Shown here: positions 3,582 through 49,676 of the stretch, one piece after another
Layout of the letters: the number at the start of each line of letters is the position of its first letter
Position numbering within the stretch: the stretch's first letter is position 1
Assembly: GCA_046483025.1 (NCBI GenBank)
Contig: JAWODZ010000126.1
Location: 11,981 to 75,980, forward strand
DNA: 64,000 nucleotides
Direction of reading: 5' to 3'
Source: a bacterium
GTDB lineage: Bacteria > Zhuqueibacterota > QNDG01 > CAYUAG01
Notes under the pieces: model-generated
What the model saw: only the letters and a program-made list of their open reading frames with translations
Databases searched by the model: none
What the model was told of the DNA's origin: nothing
Program-made: the position numbers and the translations under genes

Positions 3582-3596
3582 TAAATAGAGGTAATT

Positions 3597-4577
3597 ATGG
3601 GAAAAGAAACAAACAGTAATAGTAAGGATCTGAAAAAAAGAAAATCAACTCAAGAGAAAAAGGGATCTGTCAGAGAGTTTTTTGAATCACTTGTTTTTGC
3701 AGTAGTAGTAGCTTTGGTAATACGGGCACTGGTAATCTATCCTTTTCGTATTCCTACTGGTTCTATGGAGGATACACTTTTGATAGGAGATTTTTTACTG
3801 GCTAACAAGTTTGTCTATGGGATTCGTTCTCCGGACTGGATTGGAATACCAACTACCAGAGTTGGTTTCAGTATTCCATTTTTTCGCACTCCGGGATTCA
3901 GAAAACCGAAAAAAGGAGATGTGGTTATTTTTAAATATCCTCAGGATTCCCAGTTGAATTATATCAAAAGATGCGTGGGGGTGAGTGGGGATACTATTTT
4001 GATCCGTGACAAAGTTTTATATATTAATGGGGAAAAATTCCCGAATCCTCCTGAATCCAAATTTATCAATTATCAAACTGCTCCGGAAGATTTTATTCAA
4101 CCGGAAATTTTTCCTCCGGGAGCAGGTAATATTGATTTTTATGGCCCGGTGCGGGTTCCGGCAAAAGGGGATACTTTTCATTTTACCCAGTCAAATAAAG
4201 ATGAATGGTTTGAACGGTTTCAGCTTATGGTGTACGAAGGGAATAAGCTGGAGATCTCCTATAAAGGGGAATCAATAGCGTTAACTGTTGACAATCAAAA
4301 TCGATGGCAGAGAGCAATTCAGGTTTATCCGCCGGAATCATTTCTTGTAAATGGTACACCTGTTAATCAAGTGGTATATGAAGTGGAAAATCGTCACTAT
4401 TTTATGATGGGCGACAACCGGGACAACAGTCTTGACAGCAGATACTGGGGATTTCTTCCGGAAAGATATGTGGTGGGAGAAGGGTTGATAATATATTTTT
4501 CCTGGAACAAAGATGTTCCTCTGTACAGGATTTTTAAAAAAATTCGCTGGGGCAGGATCCTGAAACTCATCAGATAA
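3597..4577 (+). CDS. lepB: signal peptidase I (S26 family)
   Basis: N-terminal TM helix, catalytic Ser box GSMEDTL, and conserved box E region (MMGDNRDNSLDSRYWGF). Classic lepA-lepB synteny. Confidence 0.9.
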   Translation: MGKETNSNSKDLKKRKSTQEKKGSVREFFESLVFAVVVALVIRALVIYPFRIPTGSMEDTLLIGDFLLANKFVYGIRSPDWIGIPTTRVGFSIPFFRTPGFRKPKKGDVVIFKYPQDSQLNYIKRCVGVSGDTILIRDKVLYINGEKFPNPPESKFINYQTAPEDFIQPEIFPPGAGNIDFYGPVRVPAKGDTFHFTQSNKDEWFERFQLMVYEGNKLEISYKGESIALTVDNQNRWQRAIQVYPPESFLVNGTPVNQVVYEVENRHYFMMGDNRDNSLDSRYWGFLPERYVVGEGLIIYFSWNKDVPLYRIFKKIRWGRILKLIR

Positions 4578-4584
4578 AGGGATA

Positions 4585-5688
4585 ATGGAAGGAATATACC
4601 TACACTTTCCTTTTTGTCAGTCTAAATGCAGCTACTGTGATTTTTATTCCATTGTTTATTCCGAAAAACTGGTTTCAGAATATGTTCAGGCTCTGAAAAC
4701 CGAGATTCGGCTTTATTCTGATTTTTTCACCAGCAATAAAACAATCGATACAATTTATTTGGGGGGAGGTACTCCTTCCCTTCTTAAAATCGGACAGATT
4801 AAAGATATATTACATCATTTGTATAATGTCTTCAACATCAGTGAATCTTCGGAAATAACCATTGAGATGAATCCCGGAAATACCTCCCTGAAAGATCTCT
4901 CTGCTTACAGAGAGATTGGTATTAACCGGATCAGTATCGGGGCTCAGTCTTTTAAAAAGAATGAGCTGGCCGTAATGAAACGGATCCACAATCCTGATGA
5001 AATTAAAACCATATGTTCCTCTGTCCGGAAAGCCGGTTTAGAGAATTTCAGTCTTGATCTTATTTTTGGTCTTCCCGGACAGAATCTTCAGGACTGGAAA
5101 TACACCTTATCTGAATCTTTTTCTTTACAGCCAAAACATATTTCAGCGTACAGTTTAACCTGGAGTTCTAAAACGCCTCTGGGCAGAAAGATAATCAAAG
5201 GAGATATCCCGGCTCCTCAGGAGGAAATGGTAGCTGAAATGTTTCTGTATGCAGATGATATGTTAGTAGAAAGCGGATATGAGCATTATGAAATTTCCAA
5301 TTATGCCTTGCCGGGATACCGGTGCAGACATAATGAGGGATACTGGAATGGACAATCCTATCTGGGGCTGGGCCCGTCTGCTCATTCTTTCAGAGAAAAT
5401 AAGCGGTTCAGGAATGTTTCTGATGTCAGAGAGTATATTTCACGACTTTCCCAATCTTTTCTCCCGGTTGAGGAAGAAGAAGTGCTGTCTTCAGAACAGA
5501 TACGAACAGAACGTATTGCAGTGGGGCTGCGGAGAAAAGAGGGGATTGACATCAGGAAAAACAATATCGATCTGTCTGAAGTTGAGGGTTTTGTGCAGAA
5601 GGGATTGGTAGTTCATGATGAAAATGTACTTACGTTAACTCCCCAGGGGATGCTTTTTGCGGATGAGGTGGCGTTGCGGGTGGTGTGA
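4585..5688 (+). CDS. hemW: radical SAM heme chaperone HemW / oxygen-independent coproporphyrinogen-III oxidase-like protein
   Basis: CxxxCxxC radical SAM motif CQSKCSYCDF, GGGTPS motif and a HemN_C-like C-terminus. Ends with a TGA stop at 5686-5688. Confidence 0.85.
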   Translation: MEGIYLHFPFCQSKCSYCDFYSIVYSEKLVSEYVQALKTEIRLYSDFFTSNKTIDTIYLGGGTPSLLKIGQIKDILHHLYNVFNISESSEITIEMNPGNTSLKDLSAYREIGINRISIGAQSFKKNELAVMKRIHNPDEIKTICSSVRKAGLENFSLDLIFGLPGQNLQDWKYTLSESFSLQPKHISAYSLTWSSKTPLGRKIIKGDIPAPQEEMVAEMFLYADDMLVESGYEHYEISNYALPGYRCRHNEGYWNGQSYLGLGPSAHSFRENKRFRNVSDVREYISRLSQSFLPVEEEEVLSSEQIRTERIAVGLRRKEGIDIRKNNIDLSEVEGFVQKGLVVHDENVLTLTPQGMLFADEVALRVV

Positions 5689-5922
5689 GTCTTATTTTTT
5701 ATATTGAGGGGAGTATGAAAATTATCGGAGGTTATTTATGGCCACAGGATTAGGATTTTCCTGTGGAACTCAGAAACCCTCCCCCGAGATCCTGAAATGA
5801 ATTCAGGATGACAACCCCATTCTGTATTATATTGAATCTTATTTTAAATATGTCATGCTGAGCCTTGTGCTGAACTTGGTTCAGTATTGTTCCAGAATCT
5901 CATGCAGTAATTAATTAGCCAA

Positions 5923-5969
5923 CCTCCCGAAGGTTTTGAATCCTCTTCATTCAGGACAAGTTCTTCGGG
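5923..5969. repeat. REP-like hairpin element (family C), copy 1: CCTCCCGAAGG...CTTCGGG stem
   Basis: Near-identical copy at 19595-19648 (cctcctgaaggtttcgaatccttcatt..caggacaggctcttcagggggg). It sits in a 565-bp non-coding gap with three more perfect hairpins (ccacagg/cctgtgg, atcctgaa/ttcaggat, ctgaac/gttcag). Confidence 0.6.
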
Positions 5970-6182
5970 AAATGTTGCCTTAACCCTGGGGCTGACCAAA
6001 AAATCCAAAAATAATGAAAACACAAGATCACAAAATAAATATAAATAATATATTACATCTGTATCCTCATCTTTTACTCTGTGAATTCTGTGGTTATTTT
6101 TTTCTTTTTGGACCGATCCACCAGAAGGAGTGAAACAGAGTTTAACACTTTAATACGTTACCAAAGGAGTAAAATTGCCCAC

Positions 6183-6211
6183 TTGACTTTAATAATTCGA
6201 TTGATTATAAT
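6183..6211 (+). promoter_or_regulatory. consensus sigma70 promoter TTGACT-17-TATAAT
   Basis: ttgactttaataattcgattgattataat, 44 bp upstream of the ATG at 6255. It shares the GATTGATTATA(A/T)T -10 context with the lepA promoter. Confidence 0.55.
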
Positions 6212-6254
6212 AGATTAACATGTAAAATTTTAAAGAAAAGAAAGGATACATTCT

Positions 6255-6569
6255 ATGGATCAAAATAAAGGCAGACAGCAGGTTAATGTTGAACTGGGTG
6301 ATAAGGAAGCTGAGGGAATTTATTCTAATTTAGTGTTGATAAGCCATTCCCCTGCAGAATTTGTTATGGATTTTACCCGTATGGTGCCTGGTGTACCTAA
6401 GGCCAAGGTTTATTCCCGTATAATAATGACACCCCAGCATATCAAGTCATTCTCCAAGGCATTGAATGATAATATAGAAAAATTCGAAAAGCAACATGGT
6501 GAAATTAAAGCTGCCGGAAATCAGGGGAAAAATATTGGATTTAAACCTGCAGGAACACAGCAGCAATAG
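6255..6569 (+). CDS. DUF3467 family protein
   Basis: 104 aa. Core YSNLVLISHSPAEFVMDFTRMVPGVPKAKVYSRIIMTPQHIKSFSKAL matches the DUF3467 signature seen in Bacteroidetes/Chlorobi. RBS aaagga upstream. Confidence 0.7.
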   Translation: MDQNKGRQQVNVELGDKEAEGIYSNLVLISHSPAEFVMDFTRMVPGVPKAKVYSRIIMTPQHIKSFSKALNDNIEKFEKQHGEIKAAGNQGKNIGFKPAGTQQQ

Positions 6570-6591
6570 GGCAATATCGGAATATATTTAT

Positions 6592-7233
6592 ATGAGATCA
6601 ATAATCTACACATTAAAAAAATATTTTTTCACATTTAATGTATGCATTTTTACCATTCTGATGAGTATTATTCTGACAGACAGTGCATCTGCTCAGAACA
6701 GCATAATACCTAAAAGAAAATCTTTATCTCTGGAAATCGGAAACTGGCAGCCCAATACCATTAATAATGAACCAAGTTTTGATACCTTTGGCAAAGCCGG
6801 AGCCACTCCCTATATGGGAGTATCTTTTTATATGCCCGTTGTCAAAAATTTGGGGGTTGAACTTTCAGCTGCTTACTGGTCTCTCCGGGATGTGGAAAAA
6901 ATTGAACAAGTACATTCTTTGATAATCCATCCGGTAAGAGTAGATATAAAATACTGGCTGGTTCCGGATTCCTTTTTATCTGCCTATGTGATTTATGGTG
7001 GGGGTGTTTATTGGGGGGTTGAGAATGAAATCAGGCCTTTGGGTTCCAGCATAACCAAGGCCAGAGCAGGGTGGGGTTGTGATCTGGGCGCTGGTTTTGA
7101 TATTGCTTTTACCAGTTTTTTTGGAATGGGAATCTCCTGTACCTATCTTTATGTCACATTTAATAAAAAGTTGGCTGGTGTAGATGACTTCAGCGGACCC
7201 AAGATATCAGGAGTTTTTTATTTTTACCTTTAA
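6592..7233 (+). CDS. small outer-membrane beta-barrel protein (OmpW/OmpA-like 8-strand type)
   Basis: Sec signal peptide ending SASA/QN, alternating amphipathic beta-strands, Gly/aromatic-rich, C-terminal FYFYL. Start moved to the internal Met at 6592 because the track ORF start at 6496 overlaps the upstream gene. Confidence 0.65.
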   Translation: MRSIIYTLKKYFFTFNVCIFTILMSIILTDSASAQNSIIPKRKSLSLEIGNWQPNTINNEPSFDTFGKAGATPYMGVSFYMPVVKNLGVELSAAYWSLRDVEKIEQVHSLIIHPVRVDIKYWLVPDSFLSAYVIYGGGVYWGVENEIRPLGSSITKARAGWGCDLGAGFDIAFTSFFGMGISCTYLYVTFNKKLAGVDDFSGPKISGVFYFYL

Positions 7234-7257
7234 TACATATTATTTTTAGGGGGTGTT

Positions 7258-8691
7258 ATGTCAGATAAGTATTCATTTATTATTGACGGAGAACATTGTA
7301 CCTCGGGAGAGGTTCTGGAAGTGAAAAACCCTTACAAAAGTGAAGTTATTGGTGTTGTTTTCCGGCCCGGGGATTCTGAGGTGGAAAGATCCATTGAATC
7401 GTCAGTCCGCGGCTTTCAGAAGAGCAGAAAATTTCCAACTTATAAGCGATCCCAGCTTCTTGCTTCCGCAGCATCCACTATTGATAAAAGAAAAGAGGAG
7501 CTGGCAGCCCTACTCTGCCGGGAGTCAGGAAAACCAATAAAATTCGCTAAAGCAGAGGTGCAAAGAGCAGTCAGCACTCTCAGCATTGCCTCTGAAGAGG
7601 CAACCCGTATAGTAGGAGAAACTGTGCCCCTGGACATAACTGAAAAAGCAGGAGATCGTCTGGGTATTGTACGCCGGTTTCCTGTAGGACCGATTGCCGG
7701 AATTACTCCCTTTAATTTTCCTCTTAATCTGGTGTGTCATAAAGTTGCACCTGCTTTAGCAGCGGGCAATACCATCTCTATTAAACCTGCCACAGCAACA
7801 CCGCTCTCAGCCCTGACTCTGGGGGAGATTTTTCTGGAGAATGATATCCTGCCGGGTTTTTTGAATGTTATTCCCTGTTCTTCACAGACAGCTGATAAAC
7901 TGGTTACAGATCCACGGATTAAAATGATCACCTTTACCGGCAGTGCGGAGGTAGGATGGAATCTTAAATCCGAGGCAGGAAAAAAGAAAGTCTGTCTTGA
8001 GCTGGGGGGAAACGCAGCAGTCGTAATAGAGCCGGATTGTGATATTAAAACAGCGGTGCAGCGCTCTATTCTGGGAGGTTTTGCTTTTTCCGGGCAGGTA
8101 TGTATTTCAGTACAGCGGATCTTTGTACATGAGAAGATTTTTGATGAGTTCACTGAATCCTTTCTCCGGGAAGTAAAGAAACTCATCCTGGGAGATCCTC
8201 TTTCCGAAAAAACGGATATAGGTCCTATGATTGATGAGGGTGCAGCTATACGAACTGAAGAATGGGTAAAAGAGGCAACCGATAAGGGAGGAAAAATCCT
8301 CACCGGTGGGGAACGGGATGGAAATATGTTCGCGCCCACAGTATTGACCAATGTACCTGCTGAGGCCCGGGTTTGCAGCGCTGAAGTTTTTGCTCCGGTG
8401 GTAGTTATGGAAAAGTATACATCTTTTGAGGATGCGCTTGATAAAGTAAACGATTCTGTTTTTGGTCTGCAGGCAGGAGTGTTTACCAGAGATATTGACA
8501 AGGCCTTCCGTGCTTTTAATACCATAGAAGTGGGAGGTGTGATAATCAATGACGTGCCTACTTTCAGAGTTGATTCCATGCCCTATGGAGGAGTAAAGGA
8601 GTCCGGATTCGGACGGGAAGGTGTCAAGTATGCATTAGAGGAAATGACAGAATTAAAGATTATGGTGGTTAATCATGGGCTGGACCGGTGA
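7258..8691 (+). CDS. NAD(P)-dependent aldehyde dehydrogenase (GapN / succinate-semialdehyde DH-like)
   Basis: 477 aa. Motifs ITPFNFP, catalytic Glu in ELGGNAAV and catalytic Cys in FSGQVCISV. Ends with a TGA stop. Confidence 0.85.
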   Translation: MSDKYSFIIDGEHCTSGEVLEVKNPYKSEVIGVVFRPGDSEVERSIESSVRGFQKSRKFPTYKRSQLLASAASTIDKRKEELAALLCRESGKPIKFAKAEVQRAVSTLSIASEEATRIVGETVPLDITEKAGDRLGIVRRFPVGPIAGITPFNFPLNLVCHKVAPALAAGNTISIKPATATPLSALTLGEIFLENDILPGFLNVIPCSSQTADKLVTDPRIKMITFTGSAEVGWNLKSEAGKKKVCLELGGNAAVVIEPDCDIKTAVQRSILGGFAFSGQVCISVQRIFVHEKIFDEFTESFLREVKKLILGDPLSEKTDIGPMIDEGAAIRTEEWVKEATDKGGKILTGGERDGNMFAPTVLTNVPAEARVCSAEVFAPVVVMEKYTSFEDALDKVNDSVFGLQAGVFTRDIDKAFRAFNTIEVGGVIINDVPTFRVDSMPYGGVKESGFGREGVKYALEEMTELKIMVVNHGLDR

Positions 8692-8871
8692 TGAGTTTTT
8701 TTGACCTGGAAAAACTAAAAAGAGTCCACTAATTACACTAATTACACGAATTTCACTAAATAGAATTAATTAATATAATTTATGAGGTTGCCGTAAGTGG
8801 AGAAAACAGAAGTTATGGGATTAATAACTTCTGTTTAATCAAAAAAAATTGAATGGATTACTGTTCGCACT

Positions 8872-10017
8872 ATGAAAAATTACAATTTTGATGCTTTTAT
8901 TGACAGGAATCGGACTGCAAGTTTAAAATGGGATACATATAAAGGGAAAGATATTATTCCTCTCTGGGTAGCGGATATGGATTTCAAATCACCTGATGTT
9001 GTGATAGAAGCCTTGAAACAGAGAAGTGAGCATGGGATATATGGATATACACTTCCACCTGAAGAATTGTATGAAGTGGTGATATCCCGGTTAAAGCAGA
9101 AATACGGATGGCACATAAAAAAAGACTGGCTGGTATGGCTGCCGGGTCTGGTGAGCGGGATTAATATAGCCTGCCGGGCAGTAGGCAGTGAGGGAGATGA
9201 GGTGATGACTGTTACTCCGGCCTATCCTCCTTTTTTAACTGCACCTGATAATATGAACCGCACTTTAGTGACCTCTCTCATGATCAGTGATCAGAACAGC
9301 TGGATAATGGATATGGATGATCTCCGCTCAAAGGTTACTTCCCGGACAAAACTATTTCTTTTGTGCAGTCCTCACAATCCCACCGGACGGATATTTTCCA
9401 GAAGAGAATTATCGGATTTTATTGAATTCTGTGTGGAAAATGACATCATAATCTGTTCTGATGAAATCCACTGCGATATAATTCTAAATGAGACTACACA
9501 GCATGTGCCGACTGCAGCTTTCAGTTCCGAAGCTGCAGACAGAACTATCACTCTGATGGCACCCAGTAAGACCTATAATATTGCCGGACTGGGGTGTTCA
9601 TTTGCAGTAATTCCAAACTCTTCTCTGAGGCAGTCTTTCAGAAAGGCAATGGAAGGTATCGTCCCTCATGTAAATCTTATGGGATATACAGCAGCTTTGG
9701 CAGCATACAAATATGGTCATACCTGGCTGACCGAGGTATTGGCTTATCTGAAAAAAAATCATGATTATGTTTATTCCAGTATAAAAGGCATGAACTTTTT
9801 GCATATGTATCCTGCTCAGGGAACCTATTTAGCCTGGATTAATGCTGCTGCGATTGAAAAGAAGAATCCGGCAGCCTTCTTTGAACAGTATGGGCTGGGT
9901 TTTTCAGATGGATATGACTTTGGAGAGAAGAATTTTATTCGTTTGAATTTCGGATGTCCACGTTTTCTGCTGGAAAAAGCAATAGATAGATTACACCATT
10001 CTTTAAAGAATCTATAA
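8872..10017 (+). CDS. PLP-dependent C-S lyase / aminotransferase class I (MalY/PatB family cystathionine beta-lyase-like)
   Basis: N-terminus FDAFIDRNRTASLKWD....PLWVADMDF is the MalY/PatB signature. PLP-lysine region SKTYNIAG. Confidence 0.8.
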   Translation: MKNYNFDAFIDRNRTASLKWDTYKGKDIIPLWVADMDFKSPDVVIEALKQRSEHGIYGYTLPPEELYEVVISRLKQKYGWHIKKDWLVWLPGLVSGINIACRAVGSEGDEVMTVTPAYPPFLTAPDNMNRTLVTSLMISDQNSWIMDMDDLRSKVTSRTKLFLLCSPHNPTGRIFSRRELSDFIEFCVENDIIICSDEIHCDIILNETTQHVPTAAFSSEAADRTITLMAPSKTYNIAGLGCSFAVIPNSSLRQSFRKAMEGIVPHVNLMGYTAALAAYKYGHTWLTEVLAYLKKNHDYVYSSIKGMNFLHMYPAQGTYLAWINAAAIEKKNPAAFFEQYGLGFSDGYDFGEKNFIRLNFGCPRFLLEKAIDRLHHSLKNL

Positions 10018-10932: not shown

Positions 10933-11376
10933 ATGTCCAAGAAAAGTCAATTACGCATAAAAAAAATTTTTTATGCTTCCACAGGCACCAAACAGGAGAT
11001 ACCACTCTATTCCTCCCGGGTTTCTGCAGGATTTCCATCTCCGGCTGAAGACTATATCACCAGACAGCTTGATTTAAACGATTTACTTATTAAACGGCCG
11101 GCTGCAACATTTTTTGTAGAAGTTGAAGGAGATTCTATGCTGGATGCAGGAATCCATGATGGAGATATCCTGGTTGTGGACAGAGGAGAAATGCCTGCTA
11201 ATAATAAAATTGTGGTGGCAGCTCTGGACGGAGAGCTAACCGTGAAAAAGATTGCTAAAATTAAAGGCAAACTTTATTTATTACCAGAGAATCCGGATTT
11301 TGATCCTATGGAAATATCCGGTGAGATGGAACTAATGATCTGGGGTATTGTGACCTATGTTATTCATAAAGTATGA
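10933..11376 (+). CDS. umuD: translesion polymerase V accessory subunit UmuD (S24 LexA-like peptidase)
   Basis: 147 aa. Ser-Lys dyad context GDSMLDAGIHDGD ... VVAALDGELTVKKI. Confidence 0.85.
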   Translation: MSKKSQLRIKKIFYASTGTKQEIPLYSSRVSAGFPSPAEDYITRQLDLNDLLIKRPAATFFVEVEGDSMLDAGIHDGDILVVDRGEMPANNKIVVAALDGELTVKKIAKIKGKLYLLPENPDFDPMEISGEMELMIWGIVTYVIHKV

Positions 11377-11529
11377 AGTACTTTTTATCGGAAAACAATA
11401 ATAAGTTTAATCTAAAAAGATATCTCCCACGAAATACACAAAACTCACTAAATAATTTATTTGATCTATATTTCGTGAATTCAGTGTCTTTTGTGGGAAT
11501 TACAGAATGAGCGTAAAAGTAGAACAATC

Positions 11530-12825
11530 ATGAAACAAACATCTCCCATATTTGCCCTGGTCGATTGTAATAATTTTTACGTGTCCTGTGAACGGGTATT
11601 TAATCCCTGTCTGGAGAATCATCCTACAGTGGTGTTATCCAATAATGACGGATGTGTGGTTGCCCGTTCCGAAGAGGTGAAAAAATTAGGAATTGCCATG
11701 GGCATGCCTTTATTTAAGTGCAGAGATGTGATAAAAAAATACGATATTGCAGTGCGTTCTTCAAACTATGCTCTGTACGGAGATATGTCCCGTCGGGTTA
11801 TGCAGACACTGGAGCAGTTTACTGACAGAATAGAAATATATTCCATAGACGAGGCATTTCTTCGTCTGGATAATTTACCCATTACTGATTATCACAAATA
11901 TGCAGAAAAGGTCAAACGTACCGTGTTTAAGTGGACAGGCGTCCCTGTTTCCATTGGTATTGCTGAGACCAAGACTCTTGCTAAGATTGCCAACAGAGTG
12001 GCCAAGAAGGAAAAAGCTCAAAGAGGAGTTATGAATATAGTTCGGCATCCTGATATAGATAGAATTCTGGAGTCAATTGAGATTGGAAAAGTATGGGGAG
12101 TAGGACGTCAATATGCCAGGATGCTGAGGAGAAATGGTATTAACAATGCAAAACAGTTTAAATATGCGGACAGGAAATGGATTAAAGGGAATATGACAGT
12201 TGTAGGGGAGAGACTTTTGCTGGAACTGGGAGGTGAGCCGGTCATTACCCTGGAACAAGCTCCTCCGCCTAAAAAAGCCATCTGCACTTCAAAATCTTTT
12301 GGAAGGCCGGTTGAGCAAAAGAGCGAAATGCATGCTGCGGTTACCGAGTATGCTGCCCGTTCTGCTGAAAAAGCAAGAAAGCAGGGTTCAGCAGCTTCCA
12401 TGGTGATGGTCTTTATGACTACAAATCCGTTTAAAAAGGAACCGCAGTATGCAAACTATAAACAGATGCGTCTTCCTGGTCCCAGTAATAATACCATGGA
12501 AATAGTAAAGGTTGCTTCCAGTCTGGGGGATCAGATATTCCGAGAAGGATATAAATACAAAAAATGCGGAGTTTTATTAACTCAGTTAATATCCTCTCAT
12601 ACTATACAGAAGAATTTGTTTACCGATGAACAGTTAACTGACAAAAGAAATAAATTGATGCAGGTGATTGACAGTATAAACAGTGTCTGGGGCAAGGATA
12701 AAATCAGAGTAGCATCAGCTGGTTTTACCAATCCCTGGGCCATGAGAAGGGAAATGAAGTCTCCTGAGTATACAACCTGCTGGGCAGAAATACCTGTTGT
12801 ACATTGTCAGGATAATAAAACATAA
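11530..12825 (+). CDS. umuC: Y-family DNA polymerase UmuC (Pol V catalytic subunit)
   Basis: [29 protein letters not shown]-terminus with SIDEAFLD motif. Start set at the internal Met ([17 protein letters not shown]). A 153-bp spacer separates it from umuD. Confidence 0.85.
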
Positions 12826-12959
12826 GAACTTGATAAATTATTAAGTATATATCTTCTATTAAATTAGGAAAGGATTCAATATTTGTTAAAGTTGAATATT
12901 TAGATAATTTTTGATAAATTGGAAAACGTAAAAATATTAAATTAATATCGGGTGTCTAA

Positions 12960-14267
12960 ATGAAAACAAGACATACTTGCATTATTGGTGATTCAAGAAA
13001 AATGGATGATATTAAAGATTCTTCCGTCCATTTAGTTGTAACTTCACCTCCTTATTGGCAATTGAAAGATTATGGTTCTGATGAACAAATAGGTTATTTT
13101 GATTCATATGAGGATTACATAAATAATCTTAATTTAGTATGGTTGGAGTGTTTTCGTGTTTTACACCCAGGTTGTAGATTATTGGTAAATATTGGAGATC
13201 AATTTGCTCGGGCTGTATATTATGGACGTTATAAAATAATACCAATAAGAACTGAAATTATTAAATTTTGTGAAACTATTGGTTTCGATTATATGGGTGC
13301 AATAATTTGGCAGAAAAAGACTACGATGAATACAACTGGTGGCGCAACGGTAATGGGTTCTTATCCATATCCTAGAAATGGCATTATCGAAATTGATTAT
13401 GAATTTATTTTAATTTTTAAAAAATCTGGTAAAGCTCCAAAAGTAAGTAAAAAAATAAAGGAGAAATCAAAAATAACTAAGGAAAAATGGAGAAAATATT
13501 TTTTAGGACATTGGTATTTTAATGGTGTTCGACAAAATAATCATATTGCTATGTTTCCCTTAGAATTACCTAAAAGAGCTATTGAAATGTTTACTTTTGT
13601 AGGTGATACAGTTTTAGACCCTTTTTTAGGGAGTGGAACTACATCCTTAGCAGCAATAAAGACAAATCGGAATTCTATTGGATATGAACTTAATGAGGAG
13701 TTTCTTCCTATTATTAAAGAAAAACTTAATGTAAATGAAAAGACTTTTTTTGATGATCATGATTTTGTTTTAAAACATCAAGATTATTTAAATATCAATT
13801 GGAAAAAAGAAATTCAGAAATTAAAATATATTTTTAATGATCCAATTAAGTTTAATAAAAAAATCGACCCAAATAAAATGAAATTTGGATCCAAAATTAA
13901 TATTTCTGATGGTATTAGCGGTGCAAAACGTGAAGAATATTTTTATGTAAAAAAAATTATCAAACCAAATTTGATAAAACTTTCAAATAATTTAATAATC
14001 AAATTAATTGGGGTTAAACCGTTTGAAAAGAAACAAAAAGATGCAATAAAATTTCTTGAGAATAAAATATTAAAACGACCGATTTTTTTAAAGTATGATA
14101 AAATGAAATATGATAAAGAAAATAATTTAATGGCATATGTATATATGAAAAATCGGACTTTCATTAATGCCCATTTAATAAAGAATCAATTATGTGGATT
14201 AGATGATAAATATGATTTTAAATATAAACAAAAATTTGAAACATTTATTAAAGGGGAATATAGATGA
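12960..14267 (+). CDS. beta-class N4/N6 DNA methyltransferase (SPPY then FxGxG order) with a C-terminal SNase-like extension
   Basis: Motif IV VVTSPPYW precedes motif I DPFLGSGTT. Residues about 300-435 are extra and resemble the staphylococcal nuclease fold: IKLIGVKPFE versus FRLLLVDTPE, and NLMAYVYMKNRTFINAHLIKNQLC versus [22 protein letters not shown]. Catalytic Arg/Asp positions are substituted. Lies in an AT-rich (about 27% GC) patch. Confidence 0.8.
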   Translation: MKTRHTCIIGDSRKMDDIKDSSVHLVVTSPPYWQLKDYGSDEQIGYFDSYEDYINNLNLVWLECFRVLHPGCRLLVNIGDQFARAVYYGRYKIIPIRTEIIKFCETIGFDYMGAIIWQKKTTMNTTGGATVMGSYPYPRNGIIEIDYEFILIFKKSGKAPKVSKKIKEKSKITKEKWRKYFLGHWYFNGVRQNNHIAMFPLELPKRAIEMFTFVGDTVLDPFLGSGTTSLAAIKTNRNSIGYELNEEFLPIIKEKLNVNEKTFFDDHDFVLKHQDYLNINWKKEIQKLKYIFNDPIKFNKKIDPNKMKFGSKINISDGISGAKREEYFYVKKIIKPNLIKLSNNLIIKLIGVKPFEKKQKDAIKFLENKILKRPIFLKYDKMKYDKENNLMAYVYMKNRTFINAHLIKNQLCGLDDKYDFKYKQKFETFIKGEYR

Positions 14268-14854
14268 AAACACGTGTTAAAATTAAAAATTCTGAAATTA
14301 AAGAATTACTAGGTACTAAACCAATTGAATTCCCAAAATATTCAACACAAATTATTAATTTAGCAAATCAGAATGCTCAAGGTACTAGACCTCCTGTTGT
14401 TGGTCAAATGAGTGAATTAATTCAAGAATTTACAGGGAAATCTATTTCAGAATGGGAGAAATGGTATTTAGCTAGGCATCCAGATGCTATTGATAAAGCT
14501 ACTGAAAAGATATCTGAAATGGTTGAGAAATTTTGAAATGTAATAAATGAAATTGATCGTAATATGATTGAAGATTGGGTAAAAGATTTAGTAATTATAA
14601 AAACTTTTATAGGATTAAAATTTCAAGAAGCAATTTTAAAGAAAACAGCGAATTTATTAAATACTTCATACCGTTTATCTGACTCTTTAGACGAATCTAA
14701 GGGGATCGATGGATATATAAATGATATTCCAATAAGTATCAAACCTGAAACATATAAAACTAAGAAGAGTCTCCAGGAAAAAATTGAAGTAAAATTTATA
14801 TATTATAAGAAAGTAAAAGATGGAATAAATATTGATTTAGAGGAAATAGTATAA
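14264..14854 (+). pseudogene. MTase-coupled partner ORF (candidate cognate restriction endonuclease) interrupted by a single in-frame TGA at 14534-14536
   Basis: Track ORFs 14264-14536 and 14564-14854 are in the same frame, separated only by one TGA and 9 sense codons. The ATGA overlap with the MTase stop implies translational coupling. A D...SIK segment (GIDGYINDIPISIK) is a possible PD-(D/E)xK-like motif. TGA is a genuine stop elsewhere in the window. Confidence 0.5.
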
Positions 14855-14926
14855 ATAAATAGATAATTTAATTATTAATAATCTGATTTTTTTATAATTA
14901 TAATTAAGACAAACAAAGGAGAAATT

Positions 14927-15961
14927 ATGTTAAAGAAAGTTGTAGTTATCTTATTAATTTCTGTGGTGTTTTGTTACTGCAGCGGTTCTTATTCCCCTCC
15001 TTTTAAAAAGGAAGGGCAAATCCATTCATTTTTTAAAAAAATGTCCGATTCTCTTGATATTAAGGTTCTGGATCCTGATAATTCGGTAAAGTTGATCACT
15101 ACGAATTCTTTTTCTATATATAATGGTGATATTATGCCTGATTTGTATCAGCAGTTTAGTAATTTTTTAAATAGTCTGAGTTCATTAAAACAAAGAAAAG
15201 ACTATATAATAAATATTATTAAAGCTTTTGCTGAACAAAAAGCAGAAAACAGAATTTTATTACAGAAGGCAAAAGAAAAAGATGTTACAGTTTCTGAGGA
15301 CAGTGTTATTGCCCGTAAAGAAGCCCTTTATAAAGACTATGGAGATAAAGAAACATATCTTGCTTTAATCGATTCATTAGGGTTGTCTGAAGAATATGTA
15401 ATGAAGAATATTAGGGAAGGATTAAGGATGCAGGCCTTCATTGATCAATATATATTGACAGAAGGATTAGTATTGGATCAGGAATTAAGGCAATATTATT
15501 CCAGAGATAAAGCTGCTACAGTACGCCATATTTTATTTTTAACTCAGGAGAAATCAGAATCTGAAAGAATGGAAATCATAGAAAAGGCTCAGCGTGTTCT
15601 TGGAATGGCACGATCCGGATATGATTTTGCCGAACTTGTGGAAAAATATTCAGAGGATCCGGGGTCTAATACTAAAGGTGGATTATATGAGAATATTGAA
15701 CGAGGTGATATGGTCAGACCTTTTGAACAGGCTGCATTTAATTTACCTGTGGGTGAAGTCAGTGATATAGTAGAGACCAGATACGGCTATCATATAATCA
15801 AGGTGCTGGAAAGAAGTAAAGAGGAGCGTCCTCTTGAAGAAGTGAAAGATGAATTGATCGAAGAGATTCTTCAGCAGAAACAGGGGAATGTTCTTTTTAT
15901 AACCTTAAATTATTTAAAGAATGAATGTGGATATCAGGAACATTTTGATTTATTAGAATAA
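14927..15961 (+). CDS. parvulin-type peptidyl-prolyl cis-trans isomerase lipoprotein (SurA/PrsA-like)
   Basis: Lipoprotein signal with Cys (VVFCYCSGS). PpiC domain HILF...GGLYENIERGDMVRPFEQAAFNLPVGEVSDIVETRYGYHIIKV. Confidence 0.8.
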   Translation: MLKKVVVILLISVVFCYCSGSYSPPFKKEGQIHSFFKKMSDSLDIKVLDPDNSVKLITTNSFSIYNGDIMPDLYQQFSNFLNSLSSLKQRKDYIINIIKAFAEQKAENRILLQKAKEKDVTVSEDSVIARKEALYKDYGDKETYLALIDSLGLSEEYVMKNIREGLRMQAFIDQYILTEGLVLDQELRQYYSRDKAATVRHILFLTQEKSESERMEIIEKAQRVLGMARSGYDFAELVEKYSEDPGSNTKGGLYENIERGDMVRPFEQAAFNLPVGEVSDIVETRYGYHIIKVLERSKEERPLEEVKDELIEEILQQKQGNVLFITLNYLKNECGYQEHFDLLE

Positions 15962-21842: not shown

Positions 21843-23138
21843 GTGATGATGCGATTATATGAGAATGAATCAAAGAAAATTTTCACTCGTCAAGGAATTC
21901 CGGTTCCCGGTCAGCTGGGAATAATATGCAGATCCAAGGAAGTTAAAAAAGTTTTAAAAGAGAGTGACTTCCCGGTGATGTTGAAATCTTTAATACTGGT
22001 AGGAGGAAGAGGAAAAGCAGGAGGAATAAAAAAGGCAAACAATGTTGCAGAAGCAGAAAGGAATGCCAAGAAGATTTTAAAAATGAGAATCAAGGGATAT
22101 CCGGTTGAAATGCTCATGCTGGAAAAGGCGGTTGTAGAAAACAGTGCAGTATATCTGGGAGTAACCATGAATCCTGAAACCTATAACAATATCATTATTG
22201 TAAGTCCCTCCGGAGGAGTAGATATTGAAACTGTAGCCAATGAGACTCCGGAGTTAATTTTCAGGTTGGAGTTGAAAGAAAATGAAAAGATCCTGCCGGA
22301 TGCTGCTGCTCAAAATGCTTCCGATTTTTTGACTGAGCATCTGGATACAGATGCTCAGTTCAATAATGAATTAAAAGACATTATTTCCATACTCTATAAT
22401 ACTTATCAAAAGCTGGACTGTAAAACTGCAGAGATTAATCCTTTGATTATCACTCCTGAAGGTCCGGTGGCAGCGGATGCCAAAATTGTGCTGGATGATA
22501 ATGCTCTGTTCAGACAAAAAGAAGTTTTCGGATTGCTGGGCATAAAAGAAGTCAGACATGATGTTTCCGAACCTACCAGAAATGAAGTCAGGGCTAGAGA
22601 GGCCGGATTTCCCTATGTTGATTTGCTTTCTGAAGATCACAAAAAAGACAATGATAAACTCTATGTTGGTCTGGTACCCGGGGGTGCCGGATATGGAATA
22701 TTTTCCATTGATGAAGTAGCCAATGTAGGAGAACGATTCTTTGACGGTCGAGTGATTCCGGTAAATTTTATGGATTCCGGGGGAGGTCCCTCCCTGGAGA
22801 AAGTTGCTGAAATGTTTCATTTGTTAATGGATTATAAGATTGTGGATTTAATTATTACTTCCAGATTCGGGGGTATTTCTTCCTGTGATACTTTTATCAA
22901 AGGATTGATTCAAGCAATTCTGGACCGGTTCAGATCAGGCAGGAGAATGATTCCTGTGTATGGCCGCATGGTGGGAACAGATCTTCCCAGTGCACGGGAA
23001 TATTTAGATAAAGCCAAGCAAAGATATTCAGAAGAATTAAAGGATATGGATATAACCGTTGGTAATAAAAAGATAATGGCAGAAGTTATCCGAGAAGGTA
23101 TTGAAAAAGCATTTAATAATAAGGAAAGGAAATCATGA
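21843..23138 (+). CDS. aclB: ATP-citrate lyase small subunit (ATP-grasp, SucC-like)
   Basis: 431 aa ATP-grasp fold (..VMLKSLILVGGRGKAGG..). Translationally coupled to the downstream large subunit (ATGA overlap at 23135). Confidence 0.75.
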   Translation: MMMRLYENESKKIFTRQGIPVPGQLGIICRSKEVKKVLKESDFPVMLKSLILVGGRGKAGGIKKANNVAEAERNAKKILKMRIKGYPVEMLMLEKAVVENSAVYLGVTMNPETYNNIIIVSPSGGVDIETVANETPELIFRLELKENEKILPDAAAQNASDFLTEHLDTDAQFNNELKDIISILYNTYQKLDCKTAEINPLIITPEGPVAADAKIVLDDNALFRQKEVFGLLGIKEVRHDVSEPTRNEVRAREAGFPYVDLLSEDHKKDNDKLYVGLVPGGAGYGIFSIDEVANVGERFFDGRVIPVNFMDSGGGPSLEKVAEMFHLLMDYKIVDLIITSRFGGISSCDTFIKGLIQAILDRFRSGRRMIPVYGRMVGTDLPSAREYLDKAKQRYSEELKDMDITVGNKKIMAEVIREGIEKAFNNKERKS

Positions 23139-25279
23139 AGCAAAAAATAAATGCTACTGAAGGAATGCTCTATTATATTGTAGAAAAGATACGGCCGAAA
23201 CTGGCTGAAAAGATAAAAAAGACCAATGAGCTGGAAACCATGATTATTGGATTGGGGGGACAGGGTACTAAACATGCAGGATTGATGAAAGAATTTGGAA
23301 CAAATGTAACTGCAGGGGTTGCTCCGGGAAAGGGGGGAAGAAGGGTACATGAAACTATTCCGGTCTATAATACAATTCAAGAGACTTTGGAAAACCACCC
23401 GAATATTGTAGCAGCCAGTATCTGGAGACATTATTCTACTGCAAAAAATTCTGCTGTTGAAGCTATTGAAGCAGGGATACCGCTGATTGTTTTAATTTCT
23501 GAGTTTATTCCTCTGAAAGATGTACGAGATATTCTCATTACAGCCAGAAAACATAATACTCTCTTAATCGGCGGCAATACTCCGGGTTTGATATTTCCTC
23601 CGGAAAGGATTAAAATCGGAATGCTTCCTGATGTTTTTCAGCCCCAGGTGAAAAAATCCGGTCAGTTGGGATCAAAAGGGGTTACCATTATTTCCAGAAG
23701 CGGAGCAATTCTGTATCATATGTCGGATGCAATGTCCAGTGTGGGGATAGCCCAGAATGCAGTTATCGGAGTGGGAGGAGATGGAGCTATTGGTTCAACT
23801 TTTAAAGATTTGGTACCTCTGGCCATGGAATATAAGAATACAGATGCAGTGGTGGTGGCAGGTGAGATCGGAGGATGTCAGGAAGAAGTTCTGGCCCGGG
23901 ATATGAAAGAGAATCCGGAGAAATATCCCAAACCCTTAATAGCTTTAATTTCCGGGGCCCATGCTCCGGAAGGAAAAACCATGGGACATGCAGGTGCAAT
24001 AGTAACTCCGGGAGGAGAAACCGGAACTTTCGCTTCCAAAAAGAAAGCTTTAGAAGAAGCGGGTGTGATAGTTGTTAACAGTCAATATGATTTAATTACA
24101 GCTGTTCAGAAAGCACTTCAGGATAAACAATATTTCGATCCGAAAGAATATTATAAAAAAATGAAAGAAAAATGGGAGGCACCTCCTCCTGAGCCCAGCT
24201 GGGGAACTATGATCACAGAGGTTAAGCCTAATAATTTGATAATCAGAGGATACGGACTACAGGATATTATAGAAAGTACTTCTCTTCTTTCTGCTGCTAG
24301 CTTAATTCTTCAAGGCGAGATTTTAGATGAACGATACGGCAGAGCGTTGAACAAACTTGCCTGTGATGCTGCCAAAAAGAGAGCACCTGAAATCCCTCAT
24401 AATCCGGATGAAGATATCTCCAAGAGTTTACAGAAGTATTTATTAAACGATGAAGAGCTGGTAAGTTTTGAGCCTCAGGGTGAAAACAGACCGGTTGAAA
24501 AATCCATCTATTGTCTGGGACGTTTTTGCTCCTATTTAGCTGATTCCCTGGGTAATCAAAAAGTCTTGATGGAAAAAAGTGATAGAGAGAATTTTTCTGA
24601 TTTGATTTATAACGCCTTAACCGGGGAATCGCAAAATATAGAAAAATCAAAAATGATAGAAGCAATGATAACGGCCTGCATTGATCATGGTGTAACTCCA
24701 CCTTCTGCTCAGGCTACACTTATTGCTGCTTCAGTGAGGGCAGATTATGAAGTTGCAGTTGCGCAAGGTGTGGGAGCTATTACTGATGTTCATGGTGGTG
24801 CCGGCGAAAAAGCAGCCGAATTTTTTATCAAATGTGCCGCCTTGGCTAAAGAGCGGAAAATTTCCCTGAAAGATGCAACCTATACTATGATGCAACAGTT
24901 CATTACTTCAGGTATCAGAATTGAAGGAATGGGCCACCGCATTCACACCCAGGATCCCAGAAGAGATGTTCTGTGGTCAATAGCAGAGAAAAATAAAATT
25001 TCAGGAGACTGTATAAAAATATCAAAGATCGCAAGTGGGGTTTTACAGCAGATAAGGGGGATTAATCTGCCGGTAAATGTGGATGGAGTAATTGGAGCAA
25101 TTATAGCGGATATGGGACTTGATCCCAAATGTGCGAAAGCAATTTTTATTTTTGGTCGGGTCTGTGGGCTGTCTGCGCATTATTTTGAAGAAATCATTAC
25201 ACAGTCACCTATGCGCAGAATTAATTTTTCTCAAGCTGTATACAAGGGAAGTAAAGAGAGAAAGTTTCCTAAAACCTGA
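23135..25279 (+). CDS. aclA: ATP-citrate lyase large subunit (CoA-binding SucD-like domain plus citrate-synthase-like domain)
   Basis: N-terminal CoA-binding GLGGQGTKH. Phosphohistidine loop MGHAGAIV. C-terminal citrate synthase-type GMGHRIH motif. Confidence 0.75.
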   Translation: MKQKINATEGMLYYIVEKIRPKLAEKIKKTNELETMIIGLGGQGTKHAGLMKEFGTNVTAGVAPGKGGRRVHETIPVYNTIQETLENHPNIVAASIWRHYSTAKNSAVEAIEAGIPLIVLISEFIPLKDVRDILITARKHNTLLIGGNTPGLIFPPERIKIGMLPDVFQPQVKKSGQLGSKGVTIISRSGAILYHMSDAMSSVGIAQNAVIGVGGDGAIGSTFKDLVPLAMEYKNTDAVVVAGEIGGCQEEVLARDMKENPEKYPKPLIALISGAHAPEGKTMGHAGAIVTPGGETGTFASKKKALEEAGVIVVNSQYDLITAVQKALQDKQYFDPKEYYKKMKEKWEAPPPEPSWGTMITEVKPNNLIIRGYGLQDIIESTSLLSAASLILQGEILDERYGRALNKLACDAAKKRAPEIPHNPDEDISKSLQKYLLNDEELVSFEPQGENRPVEKSIYCLGRFCSYLADSLGNQKVLMEKSDRENFSDLIYNALTGESQNIEKSKMIEAMITACIDHGVTPPSAQATLIAASVRADYEVAVAQGVGAITDVHGGAGEKAAEFFIKCAALAKERKISLKDATYTMMQQFITSGIRIEGMGHRIHTQDPRRDVLWSIAEKNKISGDCIKISKIASGVLQQIRGINLPVNVDGVIGAIIADMGLDPKCAKAIFIFGRVCGLSAHYFEEIITQSPMRRINFSQAVYKGSKERKFPKT

Positions 25280-37012: not shown

Positions 37013-37018
37013 GAGAAC

Positions 37019-46094: not shown

Positions 46095-46143
46095 ATAAAA
46101 TACGAAAATTTGAATCGCATCTATTAACTATAAAAAGAGGGGT

Positions 46144-46860: not shown

Positions 46861-46880
46861 TATAAAGGAGGAGATCAAAT

Positions 46881-47084
46881 ATGTTCGGAGGAATGATTAT
46901 TATCTGGATTTTTATAGTTGTAGGAGTTATCTGGTTGATCAGATATTTGACTGAACAAAAAAATATGAAAAATAATGAAATGGAAAAAGAAACCAGCGCC
47001 CTGGATATATTGAAAATACAATATGCCAAGGGTGAGATCAACAGAGAAGAGTTCAAGAAACGTAAAAAAGATTTAGAAAATTAA
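46881..47084 (+). CDS. SHOCT-domain small membrane protein (copy 1)
   Basis: One TM, then ALDILKIQYAKGEINREEFKKRKKDL, the SHOCT signature. Confidence 0.7.
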   Translation: MFGGMIIIWIFIVVGVIWLIRYLTEQKNMKNNEMEKETSALDILKIQYAKGEINREEFKKRKKDLEN

Positions 47085-47088
47085 AAAA

Positions 47089-47732: not shown

Positions 47733-47779
47733 GAGAATAAGAAAAGATTAAAAAATTTTTGTAAGGAGGTGAACGAATT

Positions 47780-49616: not shown

Positions 49617-49676
49617 ATTTTAATCCGGAACTTTACATGGTAAAATACTAATTTTTATATGTACGAGGAGAAATGA

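What the first reader, a model, noticed from the sequence alone, without database searches (positions are those of the whole stretch)
12826..14926. AT-rich inserted cassette between umuC and a housekeeping PPIase: methyltransferase plus a stop-interrupted partner ORF, bounded by 10-bp direct repeats
GC drops from about 40% in the flanks to about 27% across 12.83-14.93 kb. The cassette holds a beta-class SPPY DNA methyltransferase translationally coupled (ATGA overlap) to a 196-codon frame that is intact except for one TGA. The decamer TAGATAATTT occurs at 12901-12910 and again at 14860-14869, exactly bracketing the two genes. This fits a horizontally acquired restriction-modification (or MTase-linked defence) module in which the nuclease partner was later disabled, leaving an orphan methylase. 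The insertion sits next to the SOS mutagenesis genes umuDC.
Basis: partly seen in the sequence, partly recalled or inferred. Interest (0 to 1): 0.75.

Follow-up and report, generated by a model that had tools for sequence, protein, structure and literature searches.

The report
Inserted restriction-modification cassette, nuclease gene broken
A 2-kb foreign, AT-rich gene pair for a common restriction-modification system (MjaI family, probably cutting CTAG) was inserted between umuC and a PPIase gene, and one C-to-T change has since put a stop codon in its nuclease gene; this is an ordinary stage in the decay of such systems.

Summary
The sequence facts are real. GC is 25% over 12826-14926 against 39% in the flanks, the lowest 2 kb of the window. 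A beta-class SPPY methyltransferase gene (12960-14267) overlaps by ATGA a 196-codon frame (14264-14857) with one TGA (14534-14536). That frame is a full-length MjaI-family restriction endonuclease (Pfam E 1.8e-66). Intact homologues have Arg or Lys at the stop, and the closest one has CGA, so TGA is a single C-to-T nonsense change, not recoding.

The two closest available relatives have umuC followed directly by the PPIase gene, so the cassette is an insertion.

The 10-bp repeat is not a target duplication. AT-rich flanks like these share a 10-mer about 20% of the time. The left copy lies inside upstream sequence that came with the cassette. The empty sites lack the decamer.

In 91 related loci (about 85 independent places) roughly 58 pairs are intact. 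Six have independently broken R genes, six contexts keep the methylase alone, and no methylase gene is broken.

Verdict: a new member of a known kind, a decaying Type II system leaving a probable orphan m4C methylase. Interest is low. CTAG specificity and methylase activity are inferred, and a sequencing error is not excluded.

The parts
10933..11376 (+). umuD (Peptidase_S24), host flank
   Evidence: Pfam PF00717, E 6.2e-33. Syntenic in L001 and L002.
11491..12825 (+). umuC (Y-family polymerase), host gene immediately left of the insertion. The true start is probably the ATG at 11530.
   Evidence: Pfam IMS, IMS_C and DUF4113. Homologues in L001 and L002 start at MKQ... Homology with L001 runs to the stop codon.
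12826..12873 (.). Left junction zone. The exact breakpoint is not resolvable.
   Evidence: No significant similarity to the L001 or L002 spacers (P = 0.71 and 0.87), and it lies upstream of the segment shared with L015.
12874..12943 (+). Cassette-borne upstream (leader/promoter) region of the methyltransferase gene. It contains the left TAGATAATTT copy.
   Evidence: Local alignment with the region upstream of the methyltransferase gene in the unrelated locus L015: score 49 against a shuffle maximum of 41, 0 of 2000 shuffles reached it.
12901..12910 (+). Left copy of the decamer TAGATAATTT. It lies inside cassette sequence and is not a junction.
   Evidence: In L015 it aligns with TGAATAATAT.
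12960..14267 (+). Intact DNA methyltransferase gene, 435 aa: a beta-class N4/N6 methylase domain followed by a C-terminal SNase-like domain.
   Evidence: PF01555, E 4.7e-45, aa 23-254, and PF00565 at 24.5 bits, aa 360-424. 100% identical to P0121; more than 100 homologues at 68-80% identity. All invariant motifs are present, and 3 deviations at conserved columns is within the range of the homologues. The best solved relative is 2zie, and N4-cytosine methyltransferases are also among the hits.
13044..13055 (+). SPPY catalytic motif (motif IV) of the methyltransferase
   Evidence: Read directly from the sequence. Invariant in alignment A6.
13617..13643 (+). DPFLGSGTT AdoMet-binding motif (motif I). 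It lies downstream of motif IV, which makes this the beta class.
14037..14231 (+). SNase-like OB-fold domain at the methyltransferase C-terminus. It is probably not catalytic.
   Evidence: PF00565, 24.5 bits against a cut-off of 21. NCBIfam NucI, 27.7 bits. A weak hhalign to staphylococcal nuclease places Asn where nuclease Arg87 lies.
14264..14857 (+). MjaI-family restriction endonuclease gene, inactivated by one nonsense codon (pseudogene). Its start overlaps the methyltransferase stop (ATGA).
   Evidence: PF09568, E 1.8e-66, covering 1-164 of 164 model positions. 5064 homologues, the best 86% identical and 196 aa long. The fold model of the closest intact homologue matches PD-(D/E)XK nucleases.
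14534..14536 (+). Premature TGA at codon 91 of the endonuclease gene
   Evidence: Homologues have Arg or Lys here. The closest homologue (L015) has CGA, so this is a single C-to-T change. TGA is an ordinary stop in this window, ending 10 of 41 long ORFs.
14708..14743 (+). Putative catalytic D149 ... S158-x-K160 motif of the endonuclease. It lies downstream of the stop.
   Evidence: D149 is at least 90% conserved and S158, I159 and K160 are invariant in 29 homologues. They fall in strands 150-152 and 155-161 of the model. D and K are kept in the divergent subfamily. The catalytic role is an inference.
14860..14869 (+). Right copy of the decamer TAGATAATTT, 3 nt after the endonuclease stop
   Evidence: Not significant.
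14858..14901 (.). Right junction zone. The exact breakpoint is not resolvable.
   Evidence: It lies between the endonuclease stop and the start of detectable host-spacer homology.
14902..14926 (+). Host-derived spacer with the ribosome-binding region of the PPIase gene
   Evidence: It aligns with the L001 umuC-PPIase spacer (ATTAATGAAAGTAAAGGAGAAATT), P = 0.006.
14927..15961 (+). PPIC-type PPIase (SurA/PrsA-like lipoprotein), host gene immediately right of the insertion
   Evidence: Pfam Rotamase families. It directly follows umuC in L001 and L002.

Best explanation
The segment is a two-gene Type II restriction-modification cassette of the MjaI family. It entered the 38-150-nt spacer between umuC and the PPIase gene of an uncultured bacterium of unknown phylum; its nearest named LepA relatives are KSB1, at about 70% identity.

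In the intact form of the cassette, the methyltransferase is made first. It is a beta-class SPPY enzyme and most likely makes N4-methylcytosine in CTAG. The endonuclease gene is translationally coupled to it, and the endonuclease cuts unmethylated CTAG in incoming DNA.

In this genome a single C-to-T change turned Arg codon 91 (CGA) of the endonuclease gene into TGA. The product is therefore a 90-residue N-terminal fragment that lacks the whole PD-(D/E)XK catalytic core. Restriction is lost and the methyltransferase is left as a probable orphan.

Shown here: the family assignments, the insertion, the nature of the stop codon, the intactness of the methyltransferase gene, and the recurrence of endonuclease loss in the family.

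Inferred: CTAG/m4C specificity, the methyltransferase being active, the truncated endonuclease being inactive, and the stop being real rather than an assembly error. The route of insertion is unknown. There is no mobility gene and no target duplication, so it was probably recombination after DNA uptake.
For: Family assignments:
- The read-through frame matches PF09568 RE_MjaI over the entire model, E 1.8e-66.
- It has 5064 homologues, the best 86% identical and exactly 196 aa.
- The methyltransferase matches PF01555, E 4.7e-45. It has SPPY ahead of FxGxG, and N4-cytosine methyltransferases are among its solved relatives.

The stop codon:
- All 23 aligned homologues have R or K at codon 91.
- The nearest homologue has CGA there.
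- TGA ends 10 of 41 long ORFs in the window, including the methyltransferase gene itself.
- Apart from the stop, the endonuclease frame has only 2 departures at columns conserved at 95% or more. Intact homologues have a median of 1 and a 90th percentile of 3, so the knockout is recent.

The insertion:
- L001 and L002 have aminotransferase, TraB, umuD, umuC, PPIase and HD in the same order with no cassette.
- Cassette GC is 25% against 39% in the host.
- The cassette holds 4 CTAG sites (O/E 1.6), while the host sequence is CTAG-depleted (O/E 0.29).

Family survey of 91 related loci (about 85 independent places):
- About 58 intact methyltransferase-endonuclease pairs.
- 6 loci with independently disrupted endonuclease genes: TAA at codon 142, TAA at 75, TAG at 14, two frameshifts, and one with multiple lesions.
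- 6 independent contexts with a solitary methyltransferase gene.
- No disrupted methyltransferase gene.

Literature: MjaI recognises CTAG, and M.MjaI is a beta-class m4C CTAG methylase (PMC11033074, PMC5867850).
Against: - No reads are available, so a consensus error or a minority allele at 14534 cannot be excluded.
- Specificity is inferred from the family name only, and I did not compare the proteins directly with MjaI or M.MjaI.
- The methyltransferase carries a C-terminal SNase-like domain that the characterised CTAG methylases lack; they are 303-364 aa (PMC5867850).
- UGA is the leakiest stop codon, and an in-frame ATG at 14564 could give a C-terminal fragment. Zero nuclease activity is therefore assumed, not shown.
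- The survey loci were found through the methyltransferase, which biases against finding broken methyltransferase genes.
- Only two related genomes, at about 80% protein identity, serve as empty sites.
Confidence: 0.8

Rival explanations
1. The TGA is a sequencing or assembly error, or a minority variant in the sampled population. The organism then carries a fully active MjaI-family restriction-modification system.
For: The window comes from a metagenome-assembled genome (P0121 is named 'MAG... [bacterium]'). Apart from the stop, the endonuclease frame is as well conserved as intact homologues.
Against: The lesion is a substitution, not a homopolymer indel, and consensus substitution errors are rare. 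Independent nonsense or frameshift lesions occur in 6 of about 64 related endonuclease genes and in none of 92 methyltransferase genes, which are twice as long. Noise would not be that gene-specific. A second nearby change at an invariant position (N89K) fits relaxed constraint.
Confidence: 0.12
2. The stop does not abolish restriction. Low-level UGA read-through, or re-initiation at the ATG at 14564 with the two halves assembling, gives an attenuated endonuclease. That would let the cassette persist with little self-damage.
For: The frame downstream of the stop is still fully open and conserved. The catalytic core lies entirely in the second half.
Against: None of the homologues examined shows a stop or a split at this position. 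Disrupted relatives are hit at different places with different stop codons, which looks like random knockouts rather than a designed feature. The N-terminal 95 residues hold many invariant residues that a restart product would lack.
Confidence: 0.05
3. The cassette is ancestral at this locus and was deleted precisely in the relatives. It is therefore not a recent insertion.
For: Only two related genomes are available, at about 80% protein identity.
Against: The cassette has 14 points lower GC than its surroundings and a different CTAG content. Its closest relatives (79-86% identity) lie in unrelated genomic contexts, some in other phyla. This reading needs two clean deletions that each leave a normal short spacer.
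Confidence: 0.03

Closest known systems
MjaI restriction-modification system of Methanocaldococcus jannaschii (R.MjaI / M.MjaI, CTAG, m4C) and its isoschizomer systems MthZI, MaeI and BfaI
   Same: The endonuclease belongs to the same Pfam family (PF09568) over its full length. The methylase is of the same beta-class SPPY type. The two genes are adjacent. The expected target is CTAG with N4-methylcytosine (PMC5867850, PMC11033074).
   Different: The endonuclease gene here has a premature stop. The methyltransferase is 435 aa with an extra SNase-like C-terminal domain, against 303-364 aa for the characterised enzymes. The host is an uncultured bacterium, not a methanogen. Specificity was not tested, and I made no direct sequence comparison with the MjaI proteins.
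Intact homologous cassettes in metagenomes, for example L014 (candidate division KSB1, GCA_034521575.1) and L015
   Same: Same two genes in the same order, and in L014 the same ATGA overlap. Protein identity is 78-86%. They are also AT-richer than their flanks. L015 shares the upstream leader sequence.
   Different: Their endonuclease genes are uninterrupted (197 and 196 aa), and their genomic neighbourhoods are unrelated to umuDC.
Orphan (solitary) CTAG m4C methyltransferases, for example HVO_0794 of Haloferax volcanii and the haloarchaeal orphan family
   Same: A beta-class m4C-type methylase without a working cognate nuclease (PMC5867850). Close homologues of the window's methyltransferase also occur alone (L009-L013, L021, L025, L029, L032, L048, L061).
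   Different: Established orphans are conserved at a fixed locus across a clade. This methyltransferase gene is absent from the nearest relatives and still sits beside a barely decayed endonuclease gene, so it is at most a very young orphan.
Restriction-modification units described as mobile, inserted into intergenic spacers with or without target duplication (from memory: comparative work of Furuta, Abe and Kobayashi, 2010; not read here)
   Same: A bare methyltransferase-endonuclease pair inserted between two conserved host genes, with no transposase or integrase.
   Different: No supported target duplication or terminal repeats were found here.

Membership tests
MjaI-family Type II restriction endonuclease (Pfam PF09568) | Significant full-length match to the family profile | tested here: met
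   E 1.8e-66, 223.5 bits against a cut-off of 22.7, model positions 1-164 of 164. 5064 homologues.
MjaI-family Type II restriction endonuclease (Pfam PF09568) | Uninterrupted reading frame able to give the full-length enzyme | tested here: not met
   TGA at codon 91 (14534-14536), where homologues have R or K.
MjaI-family Type II restriction endonuclease (Pfam PF09568) | Nuclease fold with conserved acidic and Lys active-site residues | tested here: inconclusive
MjaI-family Type II restriction endonuclease (Pfam PF09568) | Cleavage at CTAG | not testable with these tools
   Inferred from the family name and the literature only (PMC11033074).
Type II restriction-modification system (gene pair) | Adjacent cognate methyltransferase gene, with the pairing conserved in relatives | tested here: met
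   ATGA overlap in the window. About 58 of about 70 determinable related loci have the methyltransferase gene followed by an intact MjaI-family endonuclease gene.
Beta-class N4-cytosine/N6-adenine DNA methyltransferase (PF01555) | Profile match, with catalytic motif IV (SPPY) N-terminal to AdoMet motif I (FxGxG) | tested here: met
   E 4.7e-45. SPPY at aa 29-32 and DPFLGSGTT at aa 220-228, both invariant in the family.
Beta-class N4-cytosine/N6-adenine DNA methyltransferase (PF01555) | N4-cytosine (rather than N6-adenine) chemistry at CTAG | not testable with these tools
   SPPY and the N4-cytosine methyltransferases among the solved relatives (8s9m, 1boo) point to m4C. It needs a methylome.
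Orphan (solitary) methyltransferase | No functional cognate endonuclease | tested here: inconclusive
   The endonuclease gene is truncated by sequence. Loss of activity, and the absence of a second CTAG nuclease elsewhere in the genome, cannot be checked from one window.
Orphan (solitary) methyltransferase | Conservation of the methyltransferase gene at the same locus in related genomes | tested here: not met
   L001 and L002 lack it at the umuC-PPIase junction.
Transposon or insertion-sequence type insertion | Target-site duplication flanking the element | tested here: not met
   The decamer is at chance level (P about 0.2; flank-to-flank alignment P = 0.81). The left copy lies inside cassette-borne sequence. 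It is absent from the empty sites.
Transposon or insertion-sequence type insertion | Transposase or integrase gene, and terminal inverted repeats | tested here: not met
   Only two genes lie in the 2.1 kb. No inverted repeat pairs the two ends.
Staphylococcal-nuclease (SNase) domain, for the methyltransferase C-terminus | Profile match above the curated threshold | tested here: met
   PF00565, 24.5 bits against a cut-off of 21, but covering only positions 24-88 of 107. The same domain is precomputed for most homologues.
Staphylococcal-nuclease (SNase) domain, for the methyltransferase C-terminus | Ca2+-binding and catalytic residues (Asp21, Asp40, Glu43, Arg35, Arg87 of nuclease A; numbering from memory) | tested here: inconclusive
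   The hhalign alignment is weak (probability 9%) and puts Asn at the Arg87 position. By eye, the 'VDTPE' segment reads 'VKPFE' here and varies across the family. The domain is probably non-catalytic.

The most novel reading that the evidence does not exclude
The methyltransferase may be kept for its own sake. In these uncultured lineages, the CTAG methylase with its SNase-like DNA-binding domain would repeatedly outlive its nuclease. It would then be domesticated as an orphan epigenetic or 'vaccinating' methylase, much like the haloarchaeal CTAG orphans, and this window would catch the first step.

The evidence does not exclude this. Six independent contexts hold a solitary methyltransferase gene, one of them with an identical protein in five assemblies. 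Endonuclease genes are disrupted seven times, counting the window, and no methyltransferase gene is disrupted.
Probability: 0.15. Interest if true: 0.4.

Novelty: new member of a known kind. Interest (0 to 1): 0.15.

Why it matters
The finding has modest value.

- It is a clean, datable example of how a selfish restriction-modification cassette enters a conserved intergenic spacer and then loses its nuclease by one point mutation.
- It corrects the annotation of this locus. The frame after the methyltransferase gene is an MjaI-family endonuclease pseudogene, and the methyltransferase is probably an m4C CTAG enzyme.
- The family survey is the most useful by-product for anyone studying the origin of orphan methylases. 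It shows many intact pairs, recurrent nuclease-specific knockouts and solitary methylase genes.
- The conserved SNase-like domain on the methyltransferase is a further by-product of that kind.

Nothing here challenges current understanding.

Tried and rejected
1. TGA read as Trp or Gly (genetic code 4 or 25), or as selenocysteine, in an AT-rich donor. Rejected: homologues have Arg or Lys at that column and the nearest has CGA. TGA also ends 10 of 41 long ORFs in the window, including the methyltransferase gene.

2. The decamer as a target-site duplication. Rejected.

3. Duplication of the host spacer at both ends. The L001 spacer matches only the right flank (P = 0.006) and not the left (P = 0.71).

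4. Phage origin. A scan of viral contigs gave only a 27%-identical methylase domain.

5. Functional link with umuDC. Related cassettes lie next to unrelated genes.

6. CTAG depletion as a footprint of this cassette. Relatives without the cassette at this locus are equally depleted, O/E 0.24-0.40, and CTAG scarcity is general in bacteria (from memory).

7. My first survey wrongly called 49 loci 'R absent'. Most of them carry a divergent MjaI-family endonuclease of 209-240 aa.

8. An apparent stop in the L020 methyltransferase gene is only its natural stop, in frame with the endonuclease gene.

9. Exact-protein look-ups of the window's methyltransferase and PPIase returned no record, so the source contig could not be fetched.

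10. Promoter and terminator scans were at background level.

11. Rfam and tRNA scans of the window found nothing.

12. A sequence search of solved structures with the SNase-like domain found nothing.
Full report
**1. What is in the sequence**

The stretch 12826-14926 has 25.3% GC against 39.4% and 38.5% in the adjacent 5 kb. It is the lowest-GC 2-kb segment of the 64-kb window. It holds two co-oriented genes.

The first gene, 12960-14267, encodes a 435-aa protein. It has a DNA methylase domain (PF01555, E 4.7e-45, aa 23-254) and a weaker but above-threshold SNase-like domain (PF00565, 24.5 bits, aa 360-424). SPPY (aa 29-32) precedes DPFLGSGTT (aa 220-228), which is the beta-class order.

The second frame starts at the ATG of the ATGA that ends the first gene (14264). 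It runs to 14857 with a single in-frame TGA at 14534-14536.

TAGATAATTT occurs at 12901-12910 and 14860-14869 and nowhere else in the window.

**2. What the partner frame is**

Read through, it matches the MjaI restriction endonuclease family (PF09568) over the entire model, E 1.8e-66. It has 5064 database relatives, and the best are 81-86% identical and exactly 196 aa.

**3. The stop codon**

In 23 aligned homologues the column is Arg or Lys. The nearest homologue, L015, is 85% identical at the DNA level and has CGA there. TGA is therefore one C-to-T transition.

It is not Trp or Gly recoding. TGA also terminates 10 of 41 long ORFs in the window, including the methyltransferase gene.

Apart from the stop, the frame departs from columns conserved at 95% or more only twice (N89K and G153N). 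That is within the range of intact homologues, which have a median of 1 and a 90th percentile of 3. The lesion is therefore recent, or else an error.

The methyltransferase gene shows 3 such departures in 192 conserved columns, also normal, and it keeps every invariant motif.

**4. Insertion**

A scan of one genome per species with UmuC found two close relatives, L001 (83% identical) and L002 (78%). Both have the order aminotransferase, TraB/GumN, umuD, umuC, PPIase, HD protein and aconitase-like, as in the window. In both, umuC is followed directly by the PPIase gene, after 38 and 153 nt respectively.

The window therefore carries a roughly 2-kb insertion in that spacer. Homology with L001 runs to the umuC stop on the left and resumes at 14902-14926 on the right (P = 0.006).

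LepA places the host in an uncultured lineage. Its nearest named relatives are KSB1, at about 70% identity. L001's genome is the closest available, with LepA 90% identical.

**5. The decamer**

Three results argue against a target duplication.
- Flanks of this size and composition share a 10-mer or longer in 19-22% of simulations. The best left-versus-right local alignment has P = 0.81.
- The left copy lies inside 12874-12943. That segment is significantly similar to the region upstream of the methyltransferase gene in the unrelated locus L015 (0 of 2000 shuffles reached the score). It therefore arrived with the cassette.
- Neither empty site contains the decamer.

No mobility gene or terminal inverted repeat is present. 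The mode of insertion remains unknown.

**6. The family at large**

The methyltransferase has more than 8000 relatives. The top 120 are 68-80% identical and nearly all have the SNase-like domain. I examined 91 loci holding a relative of the methyltransferase gene (about 85 independent places).

After correcting an initial misclassification, the counts are as follows. The misclassification arose because many partners belong to a divergent MjaI subfamily of 209-240 aa (PF09568 E 2e-51 to 5e-27).
- About 58 loci have an intact methyltransferase-endonuclease pair.
- Six loci have an independently disrupted endonuclease gene: L028 (TAA at codon 142), L073 (TAA at 75), L074 (TAG at 14), L031 and L068 (frameshifts), and L096 (several lesions).
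- Six independent contexts hold a solitary methyltransferase gene.
- The remaining loci run off their contigs.

One solitary methyltransferase, 80% identical to the window's, is found as the same protein in five assemblies, directly followed by a DUF192 gene.

No methyltransferase gene is disrupted in any of the 92 (the 91 loci plus the window), although the loci were ascertained through the methyltransferase. Nuclease loss with methylase retention is thus a recurrent fate in this family. The window shows its earliest stage.

**7. Specificity**

MjaI recognises CTAG, and M.MjaI is a beta-class m4C CTAG methylase (PMC11033074, PMC5867850). SPPY and the N4-cytosine methyltransferases among the solved relatives agree with m4C. 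I did not compare the window's proteins directly with the MjaI proteins, so CTAG/m4C is an inference.

CTAG is strongly depleted in the host part of the window (14 observed against 48 expected). It is equally depleted in relatives that lack the cassette at this locus, so it is not a footprint of this cassette. The cassette itself holds 4 CTAG sites.

**8. Verdict**

This is an ordinary Type II restriction-modification cassette. It was horizontally inserted, and its nuclease gene was knocked out by one nonsense mutation, leaving a probable young orphan methylase.

The main residual doubt is whether the single-base stop is real in the organism (about 12% that it is not). It is a new member of a known kind, of low interest.

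Noticed in passing
window 13770-14264 (methyltransferase aa 270-435; SNase-like part 14037-14231): The methyltransferase has a C-terminal extension of about 170 residues with a SNase-like OB-fold domain. It is conserved in well over 100 homologues. Characterised CTAG m4C methylases are only 303-364 aa (PMC5867850). The nuclease catalytic positions appear not to be conserved, so it may be a DNA-binding module.
   Followed up: partly
L070 5220-5888, L041 5292-5921, L054 3922-4644 and about 35 further loci: The same methyltransferase family is paired with a second, divergent MjaI-family endonuclease subfamily of 209-240 aa. It shows at most about 25% identity to the window's type by tblastn, but PF09568 E values run down to 2e-51.
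   Followed up: partly
L028 1602-2177; L073 1354-2019; L074 5221-5877; L031 2083-2671; L068 1090-1676; L096 5229-5894: These are independent inactivations of the endonuclease gene next to an intact methyltransferase gene: different stop codons at different positions, or frameshifts. No methyltransferase gene is disrupted in 92 (the 91 loci plus the window).
   Followed up: yes
L009-L013 and L021 (methyltransferase followed 5 nt later by a DUF192 gene); also L025, L029, L032, L048, L061: Solitary copies of close methyltransferase homologues (61-80% identity) with no detectable endonuclease remnant. One identical protein recurs in five assemblies.
   Followed up: partly
window, whole; CTAG sites at 13372, 14309, 14385, 14472 and 14 others: CTAG is the only strongly depleted 4-bp palindrome (18 observed against 50 expected). 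Four of the 18 sites lie in the 2.1-kb cassette, three of them in the first 210 nt of the endonuclease gene. Relatives lacking the cassette at this locus are equally depleted.
   Followed up: yes
window 14528-14530 (codon 89 of the endonuclease frame): Two codons before the stop, an otherwise invariant Asn is Lys (AAT or AAC in relatives, AAA here). This is a second change within 6 nt of the nonsense mutation.
   Followed up: partly
window 11491-11530: The mechanical umuC ORF starts at a TTG. Homologues in L001 and L002 start at the Met that corresponds to the ATG at 11530 (MKQ...), which is probably the real start.
   Followed up: no
L014 1-13308 (KSB1 chromosome): There the intact cassette sits inside an array of repeated DUF6364 and PIN_3 gene pairs. 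These look like toxin-antitoxin modules, which suggests a defence or addiction island.
   Followed up: no
window 21843-25279 and 35300-37876: Genes resembling ATP-citrate lyase / citryl-CoA lyase with a succinyl-CoA-ligase-like part, and a 2-oxoacid:ferredoxin oxidoreductase. Together they hint at a reductive TCA cycle in the host.
   Followed up: no
window 43998-51926: A copper-resistance cluster (CopA-type P-type ATPase and a multicopper oxidase) with the highest GC of the window, up to 47%.
   Followed up: no
window 26899-30153 and 53911-55512: Two large ORFs (1084 and 533 aa) with no NCBIfam match at E of 1e-10 or better.
   Followed up: no
L101 compared with window 1785-9000: In the closest relative's genome, the genes after lepA, signal peptidase and hemN differ from those in the window. 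Synteny therefore breaks between lepA and the umuDC block in that genome.
   Followed up: no
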